Origin: a virus
Lineage: Duplodnaviria > Heunggongvirae > Uroviricota > Caudoviricetes
DNA length: 29,363 bases
IMG/VR virus record: IMGVR_UViG_2713896897_000016
Coordinates: 1-29,363 of that record
Reading direction: 5' to 3' (one strand)
In this document: piece after piece, positions 4,295 to 14,354 of the stretch
How the letters are laid out: the number at the start of each line of letters is the position of its first letter
How positions within the stretch are numbered: position 1 is the stretch's first letter
The notes under the pieces: generated by a model
Told to the model about the DNA's origin: nothing
The model's database searches: none
What the model saw: the letters and a program-made list of their open reading frames with translations, nothing else
Made by a program: the position numbers and the translations under genes

Positions 4295-5735
4295 TGTCGT
4301 CCTCATACGGTTCGATTCCGCTGTACCCGCTGTCCGGGTCTTTGATAATCCGGTTGCGAACGTCCACACCGTCGATAGCGCCGACCTGTGCCAGCGCGGT
4401 ATCTGTCTGCGCTTTTTTGACGTTGATATCTGCCTGCTCAGTAGCCGTGAGTGATGCCACTGGTAACCAGGTGATTTCTGTTTCGACGGGTGAGATACCG
4501 AACCGTGGCGCAATAACGGACCGCATGAGCATTTGGTGATGACGCTCTGCCAGCGGCGTGAGGTCGTTTTCCTGGATTGCCTCCAGCTCCTCGTGATAGC
4601 TCGATTCCTTGTAGCTGCCGCTGGACTGAAAACCTTTCGGCGACGTACCCATCAGTTTTGTGACCGGAACACCCGACGCGCCAGCAACTAACTGGTATTG
4701 CGTCATCGTCACCGTGTCGACGTCAGCCAGCGCGGTATCTGTCTGCTGATACGTGTCGTTACGGTCGATAATTTTCACGCCGTAGTTGTTGAGGTAATAC
4801 ATCCACAACGCCATGCGTTCCTCAAACGCCACCTGGTCAGTGAGTGCCGCTGCTGTGTTAACCGACAAAACCGTGCTGCGCTTTGTCATCGCAAGCTGCG
4901 GCCCCTCGTTTGCCGTGCGTTCTGCTGCGTAGACGCGCTCAAATATTTTCTGCGGAATCGACACACCGCCGTAGTTGTACGTCGGCTTGAGGACGTCCGG
5001 CACTTCGTTAGCGCGGAAAATACAGAAATGTGAACGATGAACACGGCCCAGCCCGTTAACACGCCACCACGTTGGCTCGTAGAAATGCAGATTTGCCGGG
5101 TTAGCAGTTGCGTTGCGGTCCAGTTCTGGAGTGAGCCAGTACGGGTCTATCTGCGATATCCCGCGATAGCTGCCCGGTTTCACGCTGTCGATATTGAACG
5201 GTTTGGCGTAGTAGTTCGGGTCGTCAGAATCCACCATGAATAACGCGTGTCTGATGCCGAAAATGCGCCCCATACGCACAAACTCGCGCATGGATTTATT
5301 CAGGCCAAAACGTTTATCCAGCCTTTGCATTGCCGCGATAATTTCCGGCGTAGCCTCGCTGCCGTCGTTTACCGTGATTTCGTAACCGTTGCGCACCGCG
5401 TCACGCGCGGGCATTGTGCAGACTTTATCCACCAGCCAGTGCTGAGCGATAACAGCACAGAGTTGATAGCCAATAAATCCCTGGCTGGCGTACCAGCCCA
5501 ACTGAGCATCGGGAACGCTGGCATCAGTGCCGCCCCATTTGCCAATTGCGGCATCCATGCCGACACCTTTACGTGTGCGGGGCATTGGTTTCTGGAGACT
5601 ACGCGCCATCAGTGCGGTCCGGTCAATTTCCGGCATGAACAACGGCACATCAGTCGAAAAAAAACCCGCTCCAGATTTGGGCGGGTCATCATTTTTTGGC
5701 AGCGGTTCGGGCTGCTGTTTTTTGAAGGGCCACAT
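4203..5735 (-). CDS. Portal protein (DUF1073-type)
   Basis: 510 aa ORF immediately downstream of the terminase large subunit, with an acidic C-terminal tail. Size and position are typical of a portal. Confidence 0.8.
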
Positions 5736-7225
5736 CAGTCAAAGAATCCTCGCTGCGGGTTAATCAACATGTCGTCTACCGCGTCCATCGCAGTGTCCAG
5801 CATATCGTCGTTGTCGTGTGTATCGTCAGCAGTAAACGCAACGGCCTCGGCAATAAATCCAACTACCCACTGTGTTGTGCCAGCTATCGTTACGCCGTCA
5901 CTGTAATACGTGTGGAATATCGGGTTCCGGTCCGCGTCGTGAGTGTCGGGGATATAAACTTTTCCGGTTTTCAGTTGCGGGATACAGTTCAGGCATCTGA
6001 CCAGTTTATTTTCGCCGTCGCCACGCTGAACCGCGTTAACTGGAATAGCGCGCCGTTTTGTGAGCGTGGTTATCAGCCCCTGCCCCGCCTGTTTATCCTC
6101 GATAGCCATATAACGCAGCGCCGCACGCTGGAGAGTATCCGACGGTTGCCAGCGCTCCCACAGCTCCTCCGCTTTTCGTAGCAGCTCCTCCGGGTCCCAT
6201 TTCCCGCGCTCCATATCGATGATATACATGTTCCCGTCCACCCCCATACCCGCCAGGGTAAAAACGGTGTAGTCGTTAAAATCTTTAACTTTGCCGGAGT
6301 TGGTATCAACGTACACAGCGCGCCAGAGCAGGCGCGGTAATTTCCTGTACGTGCGAAACCATTCGCCGTTAATCAGCCCACCGGATAATGCTGCTGGATT
6401 TTGCTGGTACTGACTCAAAAACGTGTACGCGTCACGCTCCCACAGTGCCAGCAGATCTCCCACGTACTCCATCTCGGGCCAATACGACCAGTACCGGACG
6501 CCCGCGACGGTTACGCTGTCAGTGTTTTTTACGACGCTCCAGCACTGTGTTCGCCACGGTTCCGGCAGCGCGTCGATATATTCCTCGCCAATCAGCGCGG
6601 GAATAACGGTGTGATCAAAACTCAGGCCCATTCCACCAGTGAGCATAAACCCGGTCGCGTCATCAACGTGGAGCCGCTGCTGTATAGAAATAATCGGAGT
6701 GGGATTGTCTTTAGAGCGATCCCCACGACGGGAGCGAATTGTGTTTACCAGTAACTGGTTGGCAGAGGCGCGCTTCGTCTCCGAGAACATATCGAGCGGT
6801 TTATTAAAATCGTCGAGCAGCACATAACCCGAAAATTCGGGACCGGAATAACCACCACGACCGCCAGTAATCTGACCGCCACCAGCTCGCGACACGGTTT
6901 GCCCAACTGAACGCCCCAGCGCGTTGATTATCTCCCACTCGTCAGCCTGTTTGACGCCGAACTGACAGGGCCACAACTCCTGATACTCCGGGCTGGCAAT
7001 AATATCTCTCGTTCTGCGGCTGGTACGTTTAACGAGTGAATCAGAGAACGAAATATTCAGATTACGAAAACGTTGTAACTTTTTTTCCTGCACCAGTGCG
7101 TTGATATACGCTGGCAGATGAATAGAAAAAAATTCTGTTTTTGTTGAGCCAGGCGGGGTGTTGATAATCAGATTTCGTTTCGCTGCTGTGCCGTTAATAA
7201 TGCCGTCGATTTTCGCCGCCATCAT
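5735..7225 (-). CDS. Terminase large subunit (ORF as it stands; the true N-terminus is upstream of an in-frame TAG)
   Basis: Walker A-like [11 protein letters not shown] and Walker B-like [10 protein letters not shown] motifs, plus a C-terminal nuclease-type region. The same frame continues upstream to an ATG at 7363, interrupted only by a TAG at 7237-7235. Confidence 0.9.
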
Positions 7226-7362: not shown

Positions 7363-8352
7363 TCAGTCCAGATCCCCAAATTCATTGTCTATCCAGTTTT
7401 GTGCGTTGCGGTAATCGTCCGGTGTGTAACCTGCTGCCGCGCGTTCACCTGGTTTGCCACCTGCCGTCAGATGAGCGGTCAACAGCCTGGCGAGTTCACG
7501 CCGTGCTGCGTCCTGATTTGCGGTCTGAATCTCAATACCGAATTTCGTTTCTTTCACGCCCGCGTATAGCCAGCGAGCATTACCCTCCAAATCTCGGGTG
7601 TCGGTAATAAATACCTCGCTCACTCCCTCGCCGTTACATTTCGGGCAATCAGGATGAGGATCGGCAGTATCAACAAATCCCAGGCCACCGTAATCCGGCG
7701 GCTGCTTTCCGTCTTTTGCTGCTGCGGCTGATGCTCTGTCGTATTCAGCAATATCACGCCACTGGTAGAGATGGTGTTCACCCCAGCAATAACGACAATT
7801 CACGCGTCGGTGCTGTGCCAGTTCATTCGGGTCCGCGTTTGCTATTGCTGTGTACTGATGAATCAGGTCGTCAATTGTTGCCGCCTGACGCTTTTCGAAT
7901 TTGTCGCGGAGGTGTCGAACGTAGCGCGAAACCTTAGCATTTCTTAGCAGGCGACAGGCATTTACGTATGCTGCGTTACCCTCACTCTGATACTCCGCGA
8001 GCCGGTACGCCTCCACCCTGGATTTACCCTCAGCGACGTAGTGAGCAAAATTCGCTTGCTGCGGTGACAGCCCGAAATTACTGACCTCGTCGGCTGAATC
8101 ATCTCCATCATCCCCCGCAGCTAACGAGTTTTTTTTCGCGTCAGATTTCTCTCGCTCAACTGTTTTTTCGTCCGTCCGTCCATTTTTATTTTGGACGGAT
8201 TTTTTGGACCGATTTTTTTGTCGCATCCAGCCGTGTTTTTTCGCCATATCCATCAGAGTGGATTTTGCTATACCGTGCTTATCAGCAACTTTCTGGATCG
8301 AGAGCACTCCGGCGCAGTAATCACGTTTAAGCGCGCCCTCGTCCGGTTTCAT
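7363..8352 (-). CDS. Terminase small subunit with an N-terminal HTH
   Basis: N-terminal HTH-like segment (SIQKVADKHGIAKSTLMDMAKKHGW) followed by a Terminase_2-like core (FAHYVAEGKSRVEAYRLAEY..NACRLLRNAKVSRYV). It lies directly upstream of TerL. Confidence 0.8.
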   Translation of the reverse strand: MKPDEGALKRDYCAGVLSIQKVADKHGIAKSTLMDMAKKHGWMRQKNRSKKSVQNKNGRTDEKTVEREKSDAKKNSLAAGDDGDDSADEVSNFGLSPQQANFAHYVAEGKSRVEAYRLAEYQSEGNAAYVNACRLLRNAKVSRYVRHLRDKFEKRQAATIDDLIHQYTAIANADPNELAQHRRVNCRYCWGEHHLYQWRDIAEYDRASAAAAKDGKQPPDYGGLGFVDTADPHPDCPKCNGEGVSEVFITDTRDLEGNARWLYAGVKETKFGIEIQTANQDAARRELARLLTAHLTAGGKPGERAAAGYTPDDYRNAQNWIDNEFGDLD

Positions 8353-8603
8353 TAGCCGCTTTCCTTCTCTCGTCTCATTAGTTCAGTATACGCAGAACGA
8401 TCGCCATTTTTGGCGCGCTTATACAGAGCGCCGCGTAGTTCAGCCTCGCCTTTTGCTCGCCCCTTTCTGATTGCCTCGCGATATTCAGTGAGACGTTCCG
8501 GACTCGTTTTCAGTTCGTTGATATCCATATCCAGCACATCGGCAATTTGTTGCTCGCTCATGCGGCGCGCGGCGAGCGCCTGCACCTTTTGGAAATCAAT
8601 CAT
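8352..8603 (-). CDS. Small HTH-like protein upstream of the terminase genes (83 aa)
   Basis: I chose the ATG at 8603 (ATGATTGA overlap with the upstream stop) rather than the 8741 extension, which overlaps the preceding gene. MSEQQIADVLDMDINELK looks like an HTH. The stop overlaps the TerS start (TAATG). Confidence 0.5.
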   Translation of the reverse strand: MIDFQKVQALAARRMSEQQIADVLDMDINELKTSPERLTEYREAIRKGRAKGEAELRGALYKRAKNGDRSAYTELMRREKESG

Positions 8604-9996
8604 TGTGGCTGCCTTGCCTGAACGCACTAAGAACGTCCTCTGATCTCCCAATCGGGTTACCATCGGGGAACGGTAACTCGAACTCGAATCGAATTGCACT
8701 CTCCAGTTCGTGGTGCGGTTGCTGCTGTGTCGGTACTGCATGTACCTGATATGACGAATCTGAACAAACGTGGGACTTAATCGTTAATCCGTATTTGTCG
8801 CCGATTTTTTTAATATCTTCATCGGCATGAAATTTTTGATAGAACCAGTTTCCCTTTCGATACTTTGCGGAAAAATTATTCTCATCAAAAAAATAAATTT
8901 GCCCGGTCCTGGTTGCAGCCTGCATGCAGCGCATCATGTCCTGAATAAATTTGAGGCGACGCCCGGAGAAGAACAACTCCCCATCTGGCTTACATAGAGA
9001 TGCGATAAAGGTCAGCACAGCGTGCTCTGCTTGCAGGCTGTCAACGCTATTGAGTACGCTGTCACAAATAACGTAATCAAAGGGGCCGTGTTTTCTAACG
9101 GATTCGCACATTGCTGTGATCATCCGGTGGACTGCGCTGGAATCAATCACGTTCCCGGCACCGCGACGGCGGTATAGTTCTACATCCAGCAGGTTATATC
9201 CCTGCTTGCGAAGTAGGCGCGCATAGTCTCCCTGGCCTGAACCAAAATCGATACCTCTAAGCTTTTTGCTGTCCGGTTGTTTGAGTAGCCATGGAATGGT
9301 GAGGTTTTCGTATAGCCTGGATTTGATGCTCTTCACGCCAGTTGTACGTAAACGCATCATCTGTGCGTAGGTCTGGACGTAAGTTTTTTTATCCAGGTGT
9401 TCGTAGTTGAATACGCCATAGCTGCGATCGAGATATTTTTTGTATTTCTCCCGCATAGAATCAGGTATGACGTAAACCGTCAGCGGTACAGCCAAGTGTT
9501 TGCATGCCAGCACATATTGCGCACAGTGAATAACTTCTCCCGACTCAGTGGCAACACATCCACCCCACGATCCATACTTCAGGATCATGTCACTTATTTC
9601 CCTGCGAACGTATGCCAGCCGGGAGCGATAGTTTCCGGTGATACGGTCTGCAGTAACTTGAATAAAACCGTGGTGGCCCTTCAATCCAGAAATAAAACAG
9701 TGCTCATCACCGGAATCCATATCGGTGCCGTTGTGGAGCTGGTTGAACCGGATTTCATCATAAACCGTGGTATCGCGTGACAGTTCGAATACGGCAGCTT
9801 TTTCAGTGCCAAGCAGGCGAAGCGCCTTTGTACGTTGGTGGCCAGCCACCAGCAGATTGCCGCGAACGATGAGCGGCTTTACCAGGCCAAGCTCTCGAAT
9901 ACTCTCTGCCAGTTTCTCCAGATCCTCACCATCAATGTGACGCGGGTTATAGTCAGCGCCACGCAGTCCAGCGATGTCAAAATCAAGCGTGAGCAT
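8596..9996 (-). CDS. ParB-N (ParB/sulfiredoxin) domain protein fused to a class I SAM-dependent methyltransferase
   Basis: N-terminus: YNPRHIDGEDLEKLAESIRELGLVKPLIV..LVAGHQRTKA (ParB-N box). C-terminal half: IDFGSGQGDYARLL..LLDVE..DYVICDSVLNSV (SAM motif I and post-I style). The ATG at 9996 is preceded by GGAGGT. Confidence 0.75.
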   Translation of the reverse strand: MLTLDFDIAGLRGADYNPRHIDGEDLEKLAESIRELGLVKPLIVRGNLLVAGHQRTKALRLLGTEKAAVFELSRDTTVYDEIRFNQLHNGTDMDSGDEHCFISGLKGHHGFIQVTADRITGNYRSRLAYVRREISDMILKYGSWGGCVATESGEVIHCAQYVLACKHLAVPLTVYVIPDSMREKYKKYLDRSYGVFNYEHLDKKTYVQTYAQMMRLRTTGVKSIKSRLYENLTIPWLLKQPDSKKLRGIDFGSGQGDYARLLRKQGYNLLDVELYRRRGAGNVIDSSAVHRMITAMCESVRKHGPFDYVICDSVLNSVDSLQAEHAVLTFIASLCKPDGELFFSGRRLKFIQDMMRCMQAATRTGQIYFFDENNFSAKYRKGNWFYQKFHADEDIKKIGDKYGLTIKSHVCSDSSYQVHAVPTQQQPHHELESAIRFEFELPFPDGNPIGRSEDVLSAFRQGSHND

Positions 9997-10597
9997 CGTT
10001 ACCTCCGGTGAGATAAGCAACGAATCCGAAATGTGAACCCGATTTTTCTACAAACGCGTCAAACGCCCCCATCAGGCTATTCGATTCATCATCTGTCATT
10101 GGCACGCGTTTACGATTGAACGTTAACCAGTTCATATCGTCGGCCCCTGTCTGCCCCTCATCTTTATCAAACGCTATCGGAATACCGCCGTCTGCCAGCA
10201 GTTCGTCAAGCTCAGGTTCATTGAATCCGAGCAGTGAGAGATCATAACCCTCGCCCAGTAATTCGCTCAGCTCAATACGTAGTAGGCCTTCGTCCCAACC
10301 AGCGTTAAGCGGGAGGCGATTGTCAACCATTCGGTAGGCGCGTTTTTGCTGGTCCGTTAATCCCGTCAGGGTAATTGTTGGCACCTGCTCAAGCGTAAGC
10401 AATTCAGCGGCAGCGCACCGCCCATGCCCTGCGATAATTACACCAGCCTCATCGATTAGAACCGGATTGGTCCAGCCGTATTCCTTAATGCTGGCGGCGA
10501 TCTGTTCTATTTGCTCCTCAGAATGTGTCCGCGTATTTCTTTCGTACTCATTCAGTTCGGAAATGTTTTTAAAAATAACTGCTATCTGTTCAGCCAT
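9983..10597 (-). CDS. ParB-N (ParB-like nuclease) domain protein, 204 aa
   Basis: ISELNEYERNTRTHSEEQIEQIAASIKEYGWTNPVLID..IIAGHGRCAAA is a ParB-N signature. I took the ATG at 10597. The longer ORF to 10720 adds an implausible Pro/Gly/Arg-rich leader. Confidence 0.75.
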   Translation of the reverse strand: MAEQIAVIFKNISELNEYERNTRTHSEEQIEQIAASIKEYGWTNPVLIDEAGVIIAGHGRCAAAELLTLEQVPTITLTGLTDQQKRAYRMVDNRLPLNAGWDEGLLRIELSELLGEGYDLSLLGFNEPELDELLADGGIPIAFDKDEGQTGADDMNWLTFNRKRVPMTDDESNSLMGAFDAFVEKSGSHFGFVAYLTGGNDAHA

Positions 10598-10793
10598 GTC
10601 TATTCCGATTACTATTACCCGGCTTGCGCGAGCAAGTGGGCCTCGGTTTGTATCCACGGCGCGATGTGGGTATGAATGACTGTCGCCAGCTCCAACTGGC
10701 GGCGGTCGCCCACCTTCCAATAATCACTATCGAGCGCCAGTAATTGACGCTCTGTACTGTTTATTTGCTGTAAATTGTCAACGCGTCATATTG

Positions 10794-11042
10794 TTAGACG
10801 TCGATTCGAATCGTCGCAGCCTTCAACAATCCACTACACACAGCACCGCTAACAGAGTGTCCGGCTGGGGATATTGCTGTGAATTTAGTTGAATAGGTGT
10901 CGTCTTTAGAGCACATCAACCCCGCATAACCCCGAATCTGTATATTGGTGTACCCGTTAACCTCCAGTGCTTTTCGAGCGGAATCCGGGTCAGTGCACGC
11001 AGTCAACGAGAGAAATAAGGCGGCCAGCAATGTTTTTTTCAT
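10794..11042 (-). CDS. Lipoprotein (82 aa), function unknown
   Basis: Signal peptide plus lipobox (MKKTLLAALFLSLTAC). It is the last gene of the lysis cluster. Confidence 0.7.
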   Translation of the reverse strand: MKKTLLAALFLSLTACTDPDSARKALEVNGYTNIQIRGYAGLMCSKDDTYSTKFTAISPAGHSVSGAVCSGLLKAATIRIDV

Positions 11043-11045
11043 TGC

Positions 11046-11240
11046 TTATTCCTTTACCGGACACTCAGCCGCCGCGCCCGTGGAATCAATACAATTGCCG
11101 TTTGCCGTGGTAATTTTCGTACCCGGCGCAATCGCAATATGTTTCACCGTCGTTCCGTCCGCGCGCGTCGCCTCTGTATACGTCGTGTGCGTACAGCCAG
11201 CCAGGGCGACTAGCGCCACCAGAATTAATAATCTTTTCAT
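11046..11240 (-). CDS. Small lipoprotein (64 aa); possible outer-membrane spanin or exclusion lipoprotein
   Basis: MKRLLILVALVALAGC lipobox, with GAGG upstream of the ATG at 11240. A GTG at 11246 is an alternative start. It lies immediately after the endolysin. Confidence 0.65.
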   Translation of the reverse strand: MKRLLILVALVALAGCTHTTYTEATRADGTTVKHIAIAPGTKITTANGNCIDSTGAAAECPVKE

Positions 11241-11242
11241 CG

Positions 11243-11728
11243 TCACGCCTCACTAATTGAAAAACTAATATTCACTCGTTCGGGCAAATTAAAATCAGGG
11301 ATTTCCTGAACGCCTGCGGGCCAGCGATAACCGCTCACCCGCGAGCGCGGAAATGCTTTGATATTCACCGCGTCGGACTGATTGCCGCCCAGCACCAGCA
11401 AATCACCCGCGCTATTTTGACCGACAACAAAACCAACATGCCCGCCGCCGTCGCGTTTAAATACGACAACGCACCCGAACGCCGGTTTTAATAGCTGCTC
11501 ACCCCAGCCGAGGTATGAGCCAGCCGACTCAAACCGCGTTGATTTAATTCCGCAACGTTCCAGCACAGCTCCGGTGAACGCAGCACACCAGGGAGTTTCA
11601 TCGTCTTTGATACCGCTCCGTTTGATGTCGCGCCAGAACTGGAGGATCTCCTGGTTATGCTGCTGTCCTTTAATCTCTTTCAGTCCGATAAATTTATGAG
11701 CTTCAGTAAGCCAGCGTGGTTCGCTCAT
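11243..11728 (-). CDS. Endolysin, TIGR02594/CHAP-like (NlpC/P60-type) peptidoglycan hydrolase
   Basis: Candidate catalytic Cys in ETPWCAAF and His in GGGHVGFVVG. It is directly downstream of the holin. Confidence 0.8.
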   Translation of the reverse strand: MSEPRWLTEAHKFIGLKEIKGQQHNQEILQFWRDIKRSGIKDDETPWCAAFTGAVLERCGIKSTRFESAGSYLGWGEQLLKPAFGCVVVFKRDGGGHVGFVVGQNSAGDLLVLGGNQSDAVNIKAFPRSRVSGYRWPAGVQEIPDFNLPERVNISFSISEA

Positions 11729-11755: not shown

Positions 11756-12076
11756 TTAGCGAGGCTGGTTATCATCCGTTACGTTTGTGAGTCGTTTTTT
11801 TCTCTGCGATACAATCCAGCGGACCCCGTGTACCCCGCCAATACCGATCAACAGTGCCACCAGCTCAGGCGTAACCTGCACCCCGTAAATTTGAGTTGGT
11901 ATCAACGGCTCAATAGCAAACGTGATTGCCGGACAGAGAATCAGATCTCCGACAGCCTGCCGCCAAGGCGCGCCCGTGTAGAACACCCTGCCGACAACGC
12001 CGACAATAGCCAGGAACATGAGCGTGATCGTGCCGTCGTTTCGCGCTACGAAATCGACTAATGATTTGTGAGGCAT
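11756..12076 (-). CDS. Holin, lambda S-like (class I, three TMDs)
   Basis: Three hydrophobic segments and a charged C-terminus (SQRKKRLTNVTDDNQPR). By-eye alignment to lambda S: GRVFYTGAPWRQAVGDLILCPAITF against [24 protein letters not shown]. Confidence 0.8.
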   Translation of the reverse strand: MPHKSLVDFVARNDGTITLMFLAIVGVVGRVFYTGAPWRQAVGDLILCPAITFAIEPLIPTQIYGVQVTPELVALLIGIGGVHGVRWIVSQRKKRLTNVTDDNQPR

Positions 12077-12514
12077 TGAATCTCACCCTTAAAAGAAATC
12101 AGTAAATAAGACGCTAACGCAACTGATTGATAAATGTTACGCCGAAAAGCGCATCGACCTTTTTCGCCTTATTGCAGATAAGCTAACGGAATTAAGTCAA
12201 TCAAGCCCCAAGCAAGTACAAAACGTAGTGAATGTTATCTATGAGCAAGAGAAACAGCACTACAAGGTTGTAATTTTCTTATGAGGTATATGAAATTGAA
12301 GAAAGCTGCCCCATCAGATTGCAAGCTCATTCAGTACCATTACACATCCTCAGGAAGACAGTTAACTAGAAGCTCCAAAGTTCCCTCTAGTTTGAATCCA
12401 TGAAATTCGGCGATTCATGGAACATAACGATCTCGCCTGAATCTTGATAAGCTGAAGGAAAGTCATCACGTTTTAGAGTAAAAGACCACCTGAAAAGGTT
12501 GTTTAGGGGCAATA

Positions 12515-12542
12515 CAAAAAAAGCGCCCGCAGGCGCTTTTTT
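12515..12542. terminator. Bidirectional rho-independent terminator
   Basis: AAAAAAA-AGCGCC-CGCA-GGCGCT-TTTTTTT. The perfect 6-bp GC stem is flanked by an A-run and a T-run. It sits 16 nt downstream of the stop of the 12558-13454 gene. Confidence 0.75.
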
Positions 12543-12557
12543 TATGATGCTAATTAA

Positions 12558-13454
12558 TTAGCTTAGCCCCTCTGCTTTACGCTGGGCTAAACGTGCTTTA
12601 AGTGAAGATGCGCTTAACACTGCACCTCGAGAAGAACCCGAGGTCTTTACTGCAACCCTTGGTTTCTGCTGAGTAGTGTTGCTCATTTTGGATCTTCCTT
12701 TTGCTGCTAAATTAGTTTGCGGACTATAACTCTTCACGTCTTGCTGGTCAAAGATTTTCGCTTCAATTTCCATCTCTTTATCATCCTCTTTTGACTCATC
12801 ATTCATCCATGCAAGCATTTCCTTCAGACAATCTACGCTTTCAAATCTCTCGATAATTTTAGTCTTTATCTTTTTATTGTAGTTGTCGATGTGGGCATCT
12901 GCAATCCAGTCTAACCGATCAATGACCTGAGCATTTTCCAACCAGATAATAAAGTTAAAATCACCACCAGAGCACGGATCCTTTTGGAAAGCAATGTTCA
13001 TACTTCGTGTAATCAGGTTTAGACCATGCTGCGAAAAGTCAAAAGCGCCACCAGTATTGATGATGCTAACGCTATCAATATACGAATTGATAGCATATGT
13101 TGAACCAGAGCCTGCACAGTAAAAAATGCTACCCAATGCTTTTAATCGCTCCGCACCTATGTAATAGGTAATCGCCCCACTCTTTCTATCCACCTCAATG
13201 AATTCACAGGTACTACGCTCTGCTTCAACATATTTTGCAATCCAATCGGCGAACTCCTCATCAACACCGATGCGGTCACCGATGTAGCCAGCCAAAATTG
13301 CTAAGATTGGGTCGATGTAGCCGGAAAAGAAAAGTATAGAGTCATTTAATACGTAATACTTCTTAAACGGTGCGGCTGCTGGCCTGTCTTCTTCATCCGT
13401 CCAAAGTTGGTCTACAGCAGCGAAAACAGAATCTTGTGCGATAATCGTAGTCAT
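12558..13454 (-). CDS. Orphan HslV/proteasome-beta-like Ntn threonine peptidase with an unrelated about 110 aa acidic-then-basic C-terminal extension
   Basis: It starts MTTIIAQD (HslV starts MTTIVSV), so Thr becomes N-terminal after Met removal. AAVDQ aligns to HslV AGDGQ (Asp17). FKKYYVLNDSILFFSG aligns to VKKVRRLYNDKVIAGFAG (Lys33), with the same 16-residue Asp-to-Lys spacing. CAGSGSTYA aligns to AIGSGGPYA. The alignment is by eye only. Confidence 0.6.
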   Translation of the reverse strand: MTTIIAQDSVFAAVDQLWTDEEDRPAAAPFKKYYVLNDSILFFSGYIDPILAILAGYIGDRIGVDEEFADWIAKYVEAERSTCEFIEVDRKSGAITYYIGAERLKALGSIFYCAGSGSTYAINSYIDSVSIINTGGAFDFSQHGLNLITRSMNIAFQKDPCSGGDFNFIIWLENAQVIDRLDWIADAHIDNYNKKIKTKIIERFESVDCLKEMLAWMNDESKEDDKEMEIEAKIFDQQDVKSYSPQTNLAAKGRSKMSNTTQQKPRVAVKTSGSSRGAVLSASSLKARLAQRKAEGLS

Positions 13455-13585
13455 TGATTCATTACATTTCTATTTTTTTCAAAATGATACAAAAAAATAA
13501 TGATTAAAGCGAATTTTTGAAGGTTAACTCAAACCCATTATGCATACAAAGTGTTGGGAGTCGTAGTAAAAAGACCTTCTAAATG

Positions 13586-13614
13586 AAAAAACCCCATCTG
13601 ATTGACGGGGTTTT
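13586..13614 (-). terminator. Intrinsic terminator-like hairpin downstream of the Q-like gene (tR'-position)
   Basis: AAAACCCC-(11 nt loop)-GGGGTTTT. On the minus strand the stem is followed by a T-run. It lies about 85-110 nt downstream of the Q-like stop, where lambdoid phages place tR'. Confidence 0.45.
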
Positions 13615-13697
13615 AAATTGTTTTGCTCAATGTGTAACACTGCCGAGCATATACAAATAGTGTCAGTTTATTTTTTCGTTTAATTAACAAAAAGTGC

Positions 13698-14354
13698 TCA
13701 TAAGTCTGAGTAGCCACGGGCTTGCATTGCTCTGCTTACATTTTGTAAATCAGTCAGCTCGGCTCTCAGTTCTCGCCGCATTGCATAAAACAAGTCTTCC
13801 TCTAAAACCTTCTCACACCATACAATCCGCTTTCGAGCGGCCTGCACATCTGTCCCTGTCATCCCTGCCAAAGTTACAGCTATACGGTGCGTGTTGAGGT
13901 GTGAGCAATGCCTGAGAACCGCAACCGCGTACATCGGGCTATCTTTTCGCAACGTCTTAACTATCACTCGCTCAATGAACTCCGCGTCATCATCAGCCTG
14001 AGTCTTTTCAAGCCAGTATTTTGTCGTGGATTGCGGGATCACCAATTCGCGTGCTTTTCGAAATAGTTCTTCGCCCCGCAGACCTTCTTCATGCAATCTG
14101 TTAACGGCATGGATGATGCGATCCGCGCTGCCCTGATCCCACTCCTTGCGCATCATTAAGCGTCCTATCACGCTTGATCCCGAACAGCCCGGGCAAGTAT
14201 CGCCCCCCATCACAGCTCCCCACAGGTTCAACATATACCGCACCCACACACGCTGACCCGGCGTTATAGTGCGTTTGCCGTGACACCAGATACGGCGTAA
14301 ATGCGCCTCACTGGTTATAAGCGGGAGTGATTTAAAACCGGCGTTATACGTCAT
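13698..14354 (-). CDS. Putative late-gene antiterminator (Q-like)
   Basis: It occupies the position between NinG and the lysis genes, with an ATGA overlap with NinG. It has a Cys-containing motif (GGDTCPGCSGSS). No close similarity to lambda Q was recognised, so the call rests mostly on synteny. Confidence 0.55.
   Translation of the reverse strand: MTYNAGFKSLPLITSEAHLRRIWCHGKRTITPGQRVWVRYMLNLWGAVMGGDTCPGCSGSSVIGRLMMRKEWDQGSADRIIHAVNRLHEEGLRGEELFRKARELVIPQSTTKYWLEKTQADDDAEFIERVIVKTLRKDSPMYAVAVLRHCSHLNTHRIAVTLAGMTGTDVQAARKRIVWCEKVLEEDLFYAMRRELRAELTDLQNVSRAMQARGYSDL

What the first reader, a model, noticed from the sequence alone, without database searches (positions are those of the whole stretch)
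8596..10597. Tandem ParB-N domain genes, the second fused to a non-canonical (class I, non-DPPY) SAM methyltransferase, between lysis and packaging genes
Two consecutive genes each start with a ParB/sulfiredoxin-type domain (..IIAGHGRCAAA.. and ..LVAGHQRTKA..). The second continues into a roughly 200-aa middle region and a Rossmann SAM-binding domain (IDFGSGQGDYARLL...DYVICDSV). I could not see the DPPY/NPPY motif of the N6/N4 DNA methylases that are usually fused to ParB-N domains in phages. The substrate (DNA, RNA, protein or small molecule) is therefore unclear. The position just upstream of the terminase genes suggests action on phage DNA around packaging. It could be anti-restriction modification or pac-site marking, but the architecture is unusual.
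Basis: partly seen in the sequence, partly recalled or inferred. Interest (0 to 1): 0.5.

Follow-up and report, generated by a model that had tools for sequence, protein, structure and literature searches.

The report
Phage ParB pair with odd methyltransferase
Just ahead of its DNA-packaging genes, this prophage carries a conserved gene pair: a small acidic ParB-like protein and a larger protein with two ParB-type folds joined to a methyltransferase unlike any proven DNA methylase. The pair probably modifies phage DNA around packaging, but its chemistry is unknown.

Summary
On the minus strand, gene A (9983-10597, 204 aa) is a ParB-N protein. Gene B (8596-9996, 466 aa) is ParB-N plus a class I SAM methyltransferase (Methyltransf_23). 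B has no DPPY/NPPY or C5 motif, and none of its 120 homologues has a DPPY/NPPY-type motif. The genes lie between the lysis genes and terminase. Start and stop codons overlap along the chain A-B-small HTH-TerS.

Three points are new here:
- B's "middle region" is a second, degenerate ParB/sulfiredoxin fold.
- A and B are an obligate pair: 91 of 95 distinct loci across at least eight phyla have an A gene next to or near B. A's C-terminal domain is specific to B-linked copies.
- Large terminase follows in at least 60 of 78 loci, and it belongs to four different types.

In a sister cassette with the same leader, ParB, HTH and TerS, B's slot holds a TET-associated DNA glycosyltransferase.

The arrangement fits the published "ParB-Tls locus" (Iyer 2013), which is predicted to modify phage DNA at packaging. 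The ParB-Methyltransf_23 fusion was listed in a 2025 survey, so the architecture is widespread and already noticed, not unusual. Its substrate is still untested.

Verdict: a new variant of a known kind, most likely an NTP-regulated two-subunit DNA-modifying methyltransferase (confidence about 0.5).

The parts
10611..10721 (-). Conserved structured leader of about 111 nt, ending 13 nt before the gene A start codon. It is probably a cis-regulatory RNA or a site belonging to the ParB gene.
   Evidence: It is 90% identical to the same position in Yersinia and E. coli phage-plasmids, although the flanking proteins are only about 58% identical. Covariance model R1 finds 10 distinct copies, always directly 5' of a phrog_620-type ParB gene. 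In the central hairpin, 5 of 10 pairs show compensatory changes, and there are sense-strand G-U pairs. There is no Rfam match. It occurs with both GpA-type and Terminase_6-type TerL, so it is not a cos site.
9983..10597 (-). Gene A: a stand-alone, very acidic ParB-N protein of 204 aa. Residues 1-140 are the ParB/Srx NTP-binding fold (GHGR) plus a helical region. Residues 141-204 are a conserved C-terminal domain found only in B-linked copies.
   Evidence: Pfam ParB_N scores 27.3 bits. It matches phrog_620 at 1e-56, and its N-terminal 140 aa match the ParB module of ParB-DNA methylase fusions (phrog_498) at 3e-46. pI is 4.3 with net charge -21. The C-terminal motif (KIPxTxEE...Y..G..GF..LL) is conserved across phyla.
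9712..9996 (-). Gene B domain 1 (aa 1-95): a ParB-N / CTPase-type fold with an intact P-motif (AGHQR) and a Box III-like FNQLHNGTD motif.
   Evidence: Pfam ParB_N scores 28.7 bits. A profile search against PDB matches Spo0J at 3e-8 and also Noc and ParB. AGHQR[TS] is present in 118 of 120 homologues and FNQxHN in 119 of 120.
9397..9711 (-). Gene B domain 2 (aa 96-200): a second, sequence-divergent ParB/sulfiredoxin fold that lacks the phosphate-binding arginine (CAQY where domain 1 has GHQR).
9277..9396 (-). Gene B basic helical linker (aa 201-240, pI 10.2).
   Evidence: AF2 secondary structure, charge calculation, and the invariant residues Q208, A211, Q212, R215, S226 and Y229.
8722..9276 (-). 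Gene B class I SAM methyltransferase domain (aa 241-425). It has motif I DFGSGQGDY, an acidic E273 after strand 2, CDSVLNSVD at strand 4 where DNA amino-methylases have DPPY, and a conserved YRKGxWFYQKFH hairpin.
8596..8721 (-). Gene B C-terminal helical tail (aa 426-466) and stop codon.
   Evidence: AF2 helices at 428-438 and 452-465. E438 and F439 are invariant.
8352..8603 (-). An 83-aa HTH-like protein whose start overlaps the end of B and whose stop overlaps the TerS start. It is a packaging-module accessory.
   Evidence: ATGATTGA and TAATG overlaps. It matches phrog_309 (TerS, partial) at 2e-14. The same gene follows B in loci L004, L005 and L007, and follows the glycosyltransferase in L126.
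7363..8352 (-). Terminase small subunit.
   Evidence: Pfam Terminase_2 at 3.7e-14 and phrog_51 at 1.8e-41.
5735..7225 (-). Terminase large subunit (Terminase_6C-type nuclease domain).
   Evidence: Pfam Terminase_6C at 1.3e-4 (22.4 bits, just under Pfam's 22.6-bit threshold). The position, and the portal gene downstream, support the call.

Best explanation
Genes A and B form a two-subunit, nucleotide-regulated modification enzyme of the 'ParB-terminase (ParB-Tls) locus' type.

**Expression.** No promoter- or convincing terminator-like site separates A from the lysis genes, so A and B probably ride the Q-dependent late transcript. Their start and stop codons overlap with those of terminase small subunit, which suggests translational coupling.

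**Gene B, the catalytic subunit.** B is basic. It carries:
- one NTP-binding ParB fold with the GHQR motif;
- one degenerate ParB/Srx fold, which probably acts as a built-in pseudo-partner or interface;
- a divergent class I SAM methyltransferase.

**Gene A, the partner subunit.** A is a very acidic ParB-N protein with no DNA-binding HTH. I infer that it docks on B through its B-specific C-terminal domain and gates or activates B. The model for this is the phage ParB that activates a thymine dioxygenase on double-stranded DNA.

**Target.** The most likely target is newly replicated phage DNA just before or during packaging. The mark would be a methyl group placed by chemistry different from N6-A, N4-C or C5-C methylation, and its role would probably be protection from host nucleases.

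**Shown versus inferred.**
- Shown: the domains, motifs and folds; the obligate A-B pairing; the position upstream of terminase; and the replacement of B by a DNA glycosyltransferase in a sister cassette.
- Inferred: physical A-B contact, NTP gating, DNA as substrate, and the biological role.
For: 1. **Domain content and fold.**
2. **A and B are an obligate pair.** Among 95 distinct B loci with enough upstream sequence, 82 have an A homologue abutting and 9 more have one within 1.5 kb. The starts and stops usually overlap. The pair occurs in Proteobacteria, Bacteroidota, Bacillota, Planctomycetota, Myxococcota, Chloroflexota, Chlorobiota and Melainabacteria.
3. **A's C-terminal domain tracks the partner.** Its last 50 aa or so are conserved in all B-linked copies. 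They differ in the ParB that precedes a glycosyltransferase, although the N-terminal 140 aa are 52% identical. In three Melainabacteria loci only that C-terminal domain is kept, as an ORF of 67-87 aa.
4. **A DNA-modifying enzyme can occupy B's slot.** Locus L126 has the same leader, ParB, HTH, TerS and TerL, but carries PF20691 (TET-associated glycosyltransferase; phrog_842) where B would be.
5. **Linkage to terminase.** The first large ORF downstream is a large terminase in at least 60 of 78 distinct loci, and it belongs to four Pfam types. The module therefore goes with the packaging position, not with one particular terminase.
6. **Charge complementarity.** A has pI 4.3 (family median 4.5) and B has pI 8.4 (family median 8.8).
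7. **Literature.**
   - A stand-alone phage ParB without a DNA-binding domain activates a thymine dioxygenase on dsDNA (PMC13229309).
   - ParB-Methyltransf_23 fusions are enriched in phages and prophages. A SAM-methyltransferase fusion bound ATP through the GxxR arginine (PMC12704722).
8. **No promoter or terminator before A.** The scan of 8300-11300 found no minus-strand promoter-like site and no convincing minus-strand terminator-like site between the lysis genes and gene A.
Against: - No validated DNA methyltransferase has this catalytic domain type. The nearest sequence and structure relatives methylate small molecules, sugars, tRNA or protein.
- No DNA-binding HTH or other DNA-recognition domain is detectable in A or B.
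- A is strongly acidic, which argues against A binding DNA itself.
- No 5-hydroxymethylpyrimidine-forming enzyme (TET/JBP) is present in the window, so B is not obviously acting on a hypermodified base. The genes upstream of A in related loci are heterogeneous and give no pathway clue.
- Position next to terminase is also where unrelated accessory genes accumulate, so synteny alone does not prove a packaging-linked function.
- I could not verify that the ATP-binding protein tested by Kaljevic et al. belongs to this exact family.
Confidence: 0.5

Rival explanations
1. B methylates something other than DNA: a nucleotide or other small molecule, an RNA such as tRNA, or a protein such as a packaging or capsid component. 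In this reading the ParB/Srx folds bind or even phosphorylate the substrate, as in sulfiredoxin, SerK or SbnI, or simply sense NTP levels. The purpose could be counter-defence (altering a signalling nucleotide or a tRNA targeted by host nucleases) or control of packaging proteins.
For: All nearest sequence and structure relatives of the methyltransferase domain act on small molecules, nucleotide-sugars, tRNA or protein: UbiG, GNMT, KijD1/TcaB9, Trm9, METTL6 and PKMT2. The best structural matches of domain 2 are the ATP-using enzymes sulfiredoxin, SbnI and SerK. ParB folds bind ATP, CTP or GTP, and a methyltransferase fusion bound ATP (PMC12704722). No DNA-binding domain was found.
Against: The standing association of this ParB subfamily is with DNA-modifying enzymes. 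The N-terminal 140 aa of A match the ParB module of ParB-N6/N4 DNA methylase fusions at 3e-46. A DNA glycosyltransferase family replaces B in a sister cassette. ParB-Tls loci are known for DNA methylases. Domain 2 lacks the conserved arginine needed for nucleotide binding in ParB/Srx enzymes.
Confidence: 0.27
2. The pair is mainly a packaging accessory. The ParB folds would act as NTP-regulated nicking nucleases or DNA-handling factors for terminase, comparable to the HNH proteins that assist cos cleavage. The methyltransferase domain would be regulatory or vestigial.
For: The pair is tightly linked to TerS and TerL by position and by overlapping start and stop codons. Some ParB-N domains have non-specific nicking activity, for example B. 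cereus Bce_0392, Osa and pNOB8 ParB (cited in PMC5512222). Many viral contigs end just upstream of gene A.
Against: The module occurs with four unrelated terminase types, both cos and headful, and most phages package without it. The SAM-binding motifs are almost invariant: DFGxGxGDY in 116 of 120 homologues, with E273 and D312 invariant. This argues for a working methyltransferase, not a relic.
Confidence: 0.1
3. A and B are a plasmid or prophage partition system, with ParB proteins in the classical ParABS sense.
For: ParB_N domains are present, and close relatives sit on 48-kb E. coli plasmid-prophages. PHROG labels A a 'ParB-like partition protein'.
Against: Neither protein has an HTH or a C-terminal dimerisation domain of canonical ParB. 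No ParA gene was found in the window. The window is an integrated lambdoid prophage with an integrase. The genes lie in the late lytic operon. The family is found in many integrated prophages and lytic-type contigs.
Confidence: 0.03
4. B is an ordinary Dam-like or N4-type DNA methylase whose motifs were simply missed by eye.
For: ParB-N fusions in phages are usually N6/N4 methylases.
Confidence: 0.02

Closest known systems
ParB-Tls (ParB-terminase large subunit) loci of phages (Iyer, Zhang, Burroughs and Aravind 2013, as cited in PMC6536676 and PMC4738411), including ParB-N fused to N6/N4 DNA methylases (phrog_498, Paracoccus phage methylases)
   Same: A ParB-like gene lies upstream, a modifying enzyme sits between it and terminase, and a ParB-N domain is fused to a SAM methyltransferase. 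The N-terminal 140 aa of gene A match the ParB module of those fusions at 3e-46.
   Different: The catalytic domain is Methyltransf_23-like, not an amino- or C5-DNA methylase. Strand 4 carries CDSVLNSVD in place of DPPY. There is an extra degenerate ParB/Srx fold, and a separate obligatory ParB partner with its own C-terminal domain. No activity has been shown.
ParB-dependent phage thymine dioxygenases (5mYOX176 with ParB176; O'Toole et al. 2026, PMC13229309)
   Same: A stand-alone phage ParB without an evident DNA-binding domain is encoded next to a DNA-modifying enzyme and acts as its cognate activator. These clusters often lie near terminase and glycosyltransferase genes.
   Different: The enzyme here is a SAM methyltransferase that carries its own ParB folds, not an Fe/2OG dioxygenase. 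No dioxygenase is present in the window. Activation by A is inferred, not shown.
ParB-CTPase fold fused to Methyltransf_23 (PF13489), listed in the survey of Kaljevic et al. 2025 (PMC12704722)
   Same: The Pfam architecture is the same, and it is enriched in phages and prophages. Fusion constructs were purified, and a SAM-methyltransferase fusion bound ATP through the GxxR arginine.
   Different: As far as the text read here shows, the survey treats it as a 'predicted DNA methyltransferase' and does not mention the second ParB/Srx fold, the obligate partner gene, the link to terminase, or the substrate. I could not check whether its tested proteins belong to this exact family.
Canonical ParB / Noc / KorB CTP-dependent DNA clamps
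   Same: The N-terminal fold matches, with a GxxR P-motif and a Box III-like motif. A profile of B matches Spo0J, Noc and ParB structures.
   Different: There is no HTH DNA-binding domain, no C-terminal dimerisation domain and no ParA partner. The genes are expressed in a lytic late operon.
Sulfiredoxin / SerK / SbnI (ATP-using ParB/Srx-fold enzymes)
   Different: B's middle domain lacks the conserved arginine of the nucleotide site and shows no sequence similarity to them. An enzymatic role is unlikely but not excluded.

Membership tests
ParB/Srx N-terminal domain superfamily (PF02195) | Profile match above the curated threshold | tested here: met
   A scores 27.3 bits and B scores 28.7 bits against a threshold of 26.3. 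PHROG ParB families match down to 1e-56.
ParB/Srx N-terminal domain superfamily (PF02195) | Conserved GxxR phosphate-binding (P) motif | tested here: met
   A has GHGR and B domain 1 has GHQR. The motif is kept in 118 of 120 B homologues and at least 82 of 89 A homologues. B domain 2 does not have it (CAQY).
ParB/Srx N-terminal domain superfamily (PF02195) | NTP binding and hydrolysis | not testable with these tools
   This needs DRaCALA or ITC with ATP, CTP and GTP. A related fusion was reported to bind ATP (PMC12704722).
Canonical ParABS partition ParB (TIGR00180 type) | Central HTH DNA-binding domain and C-terminal dimerisation domain | tested here: not met
   Pfam and PHROG scans find no such domains. 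In A, only ParB-N plus a short helical region and a family-specific tail are present.
Canonical ParABS partition ParB (TIGR00180 type) | Adjacent ParA ATPase gene | tested here: not met
   No ParA/CbiA-type family appeared among the window ORFs scanned.
Amino-DNA methyltransferases (N6-A / N4-C: PF01555, PF02086, PF05063, PF02384) | (D/N/S)PP(Y/F/W/H) catalytic motif after strand 4 | tested here: not met
   The motif is absent from B and from all 120 homologues. Strand 4 is followed by CDSVLNSVD.
Amino-DNA methyltransferases (N6-A / N4-C: PF01555, PF02086, PF05063, PF02384) | Profile or fold match to the family | tested here: not met
C5-cytosine DNA methyltransferases (PF00145) | PCQ catalytic cysteine motif and ENV motif | tested here: not met
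   Neither motif is present in B and there is no Pfam hit.
Class I SAM-dependent methyltransferases (Methyltransf_23/11 group) | Profile match above threshold, GxGxG motif I, acidic residue after strand 2, Rossmann-like fold | tested here: met
Class I SAM-dependent methyltransferases (Methyltransf_23/11 group) | SAM binding and methyl transfer | not testable with these tools
   This needs biochemical assay.
ParB-Tls DNA-modification locus (Iyer et al. 2013) | A modifying-enzyme gene lying between a ParB-like gene and the terminase large subunit gene | tested here: met
   The window order is A, B, HTH, TerS, TerL. The same order holds in related loci: A adjacent or near in 91 of 95, and TerL downstream in at least 60 of 78.
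ParB-Tls DNA-modification locus (Iyer et al. 2013) | The enzyme modifies phage DNA | not testable with these tools
   There is only indirect support: a DNA glycosyltransferase family occupies the same slot in L126.
phrog_5475 (phage protein family of unknown function) | Full-length profile match | tested here: met
   E 4.1e-171, covering residues 1-461 of B and positions 1-454 of the 458-position profile.

The most novel reading that the evidence does not exclude
B is the founding member of a new class of nucleic-acid-modifying enzyme: a methyltransferase of the small-molecule type, harnessed to DNA by three ParB/Srx folds (two in cis and one supplied by A). It would work as an NTP-gated clamp or activator complex and place on phage DNA, as it is packaged, a methyl mark that no known DNA methylase family makes. 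The conserved structured leader in front of gene A (and, in other phyla, the uncharacterised 145-aa protein X) would be further parts of the same system.
Probability: 0.28. Interest if true: 0.8.

Novelty: new variant of a known kind. Interest (0 to 1): 0.5.

Why it matters
Phage DNA modifications decide whether restriction, BREX-like and other defences can act on a phage, and they are a source of new enzymes for biotechnology. This module is conserved at 33-65% identity from Enterobacteria to Bacteroidota, Bacillota, Planctomycetota and Melainabacteria. Its catalytic domain nevertheless belongs to no validated DNA methylase family, so current annotation and methylome pipelines would not predict what it does.

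If it modifies DNA, it would add a new enzyme class and probably a new mark. It would also give a second worked example, after the ParB-dependent thymine dioxygenases, of ParB folds acting as regulators of DNA-modifying enzymes and not as partition proteins.

The question can be tested directly. The standard laboratory strain E. coli ATCC 25922 carries a homologous A-B pair on its 48.5-kb plasmid-prophage.

Tried and rejected
1. **Internal duplication by sequence.** hhalign of B residues 1-100 against 101-200 found nothing. The second ParB/Srx fold was seen only by structure.
2. **Leader as a cos site.** The conserved 111-nt leader contains GGGCGACC, which from memory resembles the lambda cohesive end, and many viral contigs end just upstream of gene A. 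I rejected a cos site because the same element precedes gene A in phages with GpA-type and with Terminase_6-type large terminases, and because its central hairpin covaries. Rfam has no match.
3. **Leader as coding sequence.** The leader is in frame with A in the window, but indels of 1-2 nt among copies break the frame.
4. **Hypermodified-base substrate.** I looked for a TET/JBP dioxygenase, another methylase or a glycosyltransferase in the window that would make B a tailoring enzyme. None was found. The genes upstream of A in 62 related loci are heterogeneous.
5. **Protein X.** I tried to name this 145-aa partner, which is present in 58% of loci but not in the window. It has no Pfam or PHROG family, and its 58 homologues are either labelled 'hypothetical protein' or carry no name.
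6. **Link to a stand-alone methylase.** A relation between B's methyltransferase domain and the stand-alone Methyltransf_23 gene next to the glycosyltransferase cassette in L126 was not significant.
7. **Accession search.** A literature search for the protein accessions gave nothing.
8. **Unavailable resources.** The AlphaFold-database fold library was unavailable. The Iyer 2013 paper is not held, so it is cited through two papers that describe it.
Full report
**What is there**

All the relevant genes are on the minus strand.

- Gene A runs 9983-10597 and encodes 204 aa, starting MAEQIAVIF.
- Gene B runs 8596-9996 and encodes 466 aa, starting MLTLDFDI, with a GGAGGT ribosome-binding site four bases before its ATG.
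- B's ATG lies inside the last 14 nt of A.
- B's stop overlaps the ATG of an 83-aa HTH-like gene (8352-8603).
- The stop of that gene overlaps the ATG of the small terminase subunit (7363-8352).
- The large terminase (5735-7225) and the portal gene follow.
- An independent gene call on the identical NCBI contig (BBVG01000029.1) gives the same products.

Upstream lie a Q-type antiterminator (13698-14354), a holin, an endolysin and two small lysis-region ORFs. No promoter-like site was found on the minus strand anywhere in the scanned 8300-11300, and no terminator-like site lies between the lysis genes and gene A (the two minus-strand hits fall inside A and B).

**Check of the observation**

- Both proteins pass Pfam's ParB_N threshold. 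B also matches Methyltransf_23 at aa 242-374.
- PHROG profiles are much stronger. A is phrog_620 (1e-56). B matches phrog_5475, a family of unknown function, end to end (4e-171).
- No (D/N/S)PP(Y/F/W/H) motif occurs in B or in any of 120 homologues. B has no PCQ or ENV motif.
- A profile of the family searched against all PDB sequences finds CTP-binding ParB, Noc and Spo0J for the N-terminus. For the C-terminal domain it finds UbiG and other small-molecule methyltransferases.
- An AlphaFold2 model built on 47 homologues is confident (pLDDT 91.3, pTM 0.88).

**The middle region**

This second domain has CAQY where domain 1 has GHQR, so it lacks the phosphate-binding arginine. Its own motif, (V/I)(I/F)H(C/A)AQY, is kept in 108 of 120 homologues. 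B is thus ParB-N, then a degenerate ParB/Srx fold, then a basic linker, then a methyltransferase. The two-gene unit contains three ParB/Srx folds in all.

**How common, and in what company**

- The family has 923 cluster representatives at E <= 0.001 in the 5.8-billion-protein collection.
- Searching with only the family-specific part (residues 96-466) against 1.84 billion representatives gives 432 hits, 203 of them below 1e-30. Nearly all are about 455-490 aa, and the match starts near residue 100 of the target. The architecture is therefore fixed, and the methyltransferase domain has no close relatives outside it.
- Members occur in cultured phages of Yersinia, E. coli, Bacteroides and Brochothrix, in 172 IMG/VR stretches, and in genomes of Enterobacterales, Alphaproteobacteria, Bacillota, Planctomycetota, Myxococcota, Chloroflexota, Chlorobiota, Bacteroidia and Melainabacteria.

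Among 95 loci with distinct B sequences and at least 700 nt of upstream sequence:
- 82 have an A homologue abutting B;
- 9 more have one within 1.5 kb;
- 4 have none, and the three of those whose record names an organism are Chloroflexota.

The first large ORF downstream is a large terminase in at least 60 of 78 distinct loci. These terminases belong to four Pfam types: GpA 27, Terminase_6 about 21, TerL_ATPase 6 and Terminase_3 5. The Bacteroides phage BS-TP3 shows the order ParB, ParB-methyltransferase, TerS, TerL, with B at only 35% identity to the window protein.

**Evidence that A is B's partner**

- The N-terminal 140 residues of A resemble the ParB module of ParB-N6/N4 methylase fusions (phrog_498, 3e-46).
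- The last 50 residues or so carry a motif (KIPxTxEE...Y..G..GF..LL) that is conserved in B-linked copies from all phyla.
- In three Melainabacteria loci only this C-terminal piece is present, as an ORF of 67-87 aa abutting B.
- A is very acidic: pI 4.3, net charge -21, family median 4.5. B is basic: pI 8.4, family median 8.8, with a linker of pI 10.2.

**A natural swap experiment**

A search for the conserved leader (described under 'A cis element' below) found three further viral contigs (L126, L129 and L133) with an A-type ParB and no B.

I read L126 in full. Its order is:
- leader;
- ParB, 52% identical to A over the first 140 aa but with a different tail;
- a 295-aa protein;
- the same small HTH gene;
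- TerS;
- TerL.

The 295-aa protein is a TET-associated glycosyltransferase (PF20691, 1.6e-32; phrog_842, 4e-85). This is a family tied to glycosylation of hydroxymethylated bases in DNA. So the slot that B occupies is used elsewhere for a DNA-modifying enzyme, and the ParB tail changes with the enzyme.

**Comparison with what is known**

- Two papers describe the 'ParB-Tls locus' of Iyer et al. 2013. In it, DNA methylase and other DNA-modifying genes lie between a ParB-like gene and the terminase large subunit, ParB is sometimes fused to the methylase, and the locus is predicted to modify phage DNA during packaging (PMC6536676; PMC4738411).
- O'Toole et al. 2026 showed that a stand-alone phage ParB without a DNA-binding domain activates its cognate thymine dioxygenase on dsDNA. 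They also found that ParB, terminase, glycosyltransferase and O-methyltransferase genes recur in such clusters (PMC13229309).
- Kaljevic et al. 2025 list PF13489 among the domains fused to the ParB fold preferentially in phages and prophages. They call it a predicted DNA methyltransferase, cloned bacterial and gut-phage examples, and report that a SAM-methyltransferase fusion binds ATP through the GxxR arginine (PMC12704722).

The window's genes therefore belong to a known kind of locus, and their Pfam architecture has been noticed. The text I read from these sources does not mention the second ParB/Srx fold, the obligate partner with its own tail, the cross-phylum linkage to terminase, or the glycosyltransferase swap. 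No activity has been reported.

**Most likely mechanism**

A and B are made together late in infection. B is the catalytic subunit, and A docks on it through its C-terminal domain. Nucleotide binding to the intact P-motifs of A and of B domain 1 then controls engagement of the ParB folds and so the activity of B. The degenerate domain 2 would serve as a fixed interface. The substrate is most likely replicated phage DNA before or during packaging.

Because the catalytic domain is unlike amino- or C5-DNA methylases, and no hydroxymethyl-pyrimidine pathway is present in the window, the chemistry cannot be predicted. I give this explanation about 0.5.

The main rival, at about 0.27, is a non-DNA substrate such as a nucleotide, tRNA or protein. 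It rests on the affinities of the methyltransferase domain and on the absence of any DNA-binding domain. A packaging-accessory or nuclease role (0.1), partition (0.03) and an ordinary DNA methylase (0.02) are less likely, for the reasons given under each rival.

**A cis element**

The 111 nt at 10611-10721 (minus strand), ending 13 nt before A's ATG, are 90% identical to the same position in Yersinia and E. coli phage-plasmids whose A and B proteins are only about 58% identical. A covariance model finds 10 distinct copies, all directly 5' of an A-type ParB gene, including the three loci that lack B.

The central hairpin has compensatory changes at 5 of 10 pairs. The overall covariation exceeds all 500 shuffles and all slid controls. 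G-U pairs fall on the mRNA-sense strand. With so few, related sequences this is suggestive only.

The element occurs with two terminase types and has no Rfam match. I read it as a leader RNA or protein-binding site that belongs to the ParB gene. Its function is unknown.

**Verdict**

- The feature is a widespread, already-noticed but uncharacterised variant of the ParB-Tls DNA-modification locus, with several new anatomical details.
- It is of moderate interest and is directly testable, for example in E. coli ATCC 25922, whose 48.5-kb plasmid-prophage carries the pair.

Noticed in passing
window 10611-10721 (minus strand); also L001 4252-4363, L007 5274-5384, L013 5265-5377, L084 5258-5372, L126 5728-5838 (-): A conserved structured element of about 111 nt lies directly 5' of the stand-alone ParB gene. 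It is 90% identical between phages whose flanking proteins are about 58% identical. It has a covarying hairpin and no Rfam family. It is present whether the next enzyme is the ParB-methyltransferase or a glycosyltransferase, and with two different terminase types.
   Followed up: partly
L014 1610-2038, L017 2595-3041, L020 2240-2665 and 56 other loci (not in the window): A third conserved gene, 'X', encodes about 145 aa (consensus ...RYLWxKxVxGFD..HCAxCL...CGVSxPYxWxNNxHL...CRNFQFGA). It abuts the 3' end of gene B, on the same strand or convergent, in 59 of 102 distinct loci. It has no Pfam or PHROG family, and its 58 homologues are either labelled 'hypothetical protein' or carry no name. It is absent from the window and from the enterobacterial loci.
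   Followed up: partly
L126 4068-4955 (-), with ParB at 4921-5712 (-): This sister cassette has the same leader, ParB, small HTH, TerS and TerL, but a TET-associated glycosyltransferase (PF20691) in place of gene B. A stand-alone Methyltransf_23 gene (6040-6657) lies just upstream of the leader.
   Followed up: yes
L136 (E. coli ATCC 25922 plasmid NZ_CP009073.1) 9420-10010; L009, L011, L012 and L013 at about 8630-9390: The 48-kb E. coli and Yersinia plasmid-prophages carry a second stand-alone ParB/Srx gene (196 aa) between gene B and the GpA-type terminase. They also carry an MT-A70 methylase about 2.5 kb upstream of gene A.
   Followed up: no
L109 538-759, L113 477-740, L114 741-944: In Melainabacteria/Gastranaerophilales contigs, the ORF abutting gene B encodes only the C-terminal domain of A (67-87 aa) and no ParB-N domain.
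   Followed up: partly
L101 4119-9144, L102 2381-5292, L105 439-7617: Chloroflexota loci carry tandem arrays of two or three proteins of about 470-490 aa that each start with a ParB-N domain. These are B and B-like paralogues, and no A-type gene abuts them.
   Followed up: no
L008, L014, L021, L022, L030, L031, L020, L060 and others (first 16-200 nt of each locus): Many IMG/VR contigs, some 35-58 kb long, end within 200 nt upstream of gene A. In those phages the pair is at one physical or assembly end of the genome, just before terminase.
   Followed up: no
window 12000-14000, ORF 12558-13454 (-): A low-GC island (0.41-0.42, against about 0.5 for its neighbours) lies between the Q antiterminator and the holin. 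It carries a 298-aa ORF with a weak match to an HslV-family peptidase PHROG (1e-7). It looks like an acquired cargo gene.
   Followed up: no
window 9983-10597 (-): Gene A is unusually acidic (pI 4.3, net charge -21 over 204 aa; family median pI 4.5). This is in the range of DNA-mimic anti-restriction proteins, so a decoy role cannot be excluded.
   Followed up: no
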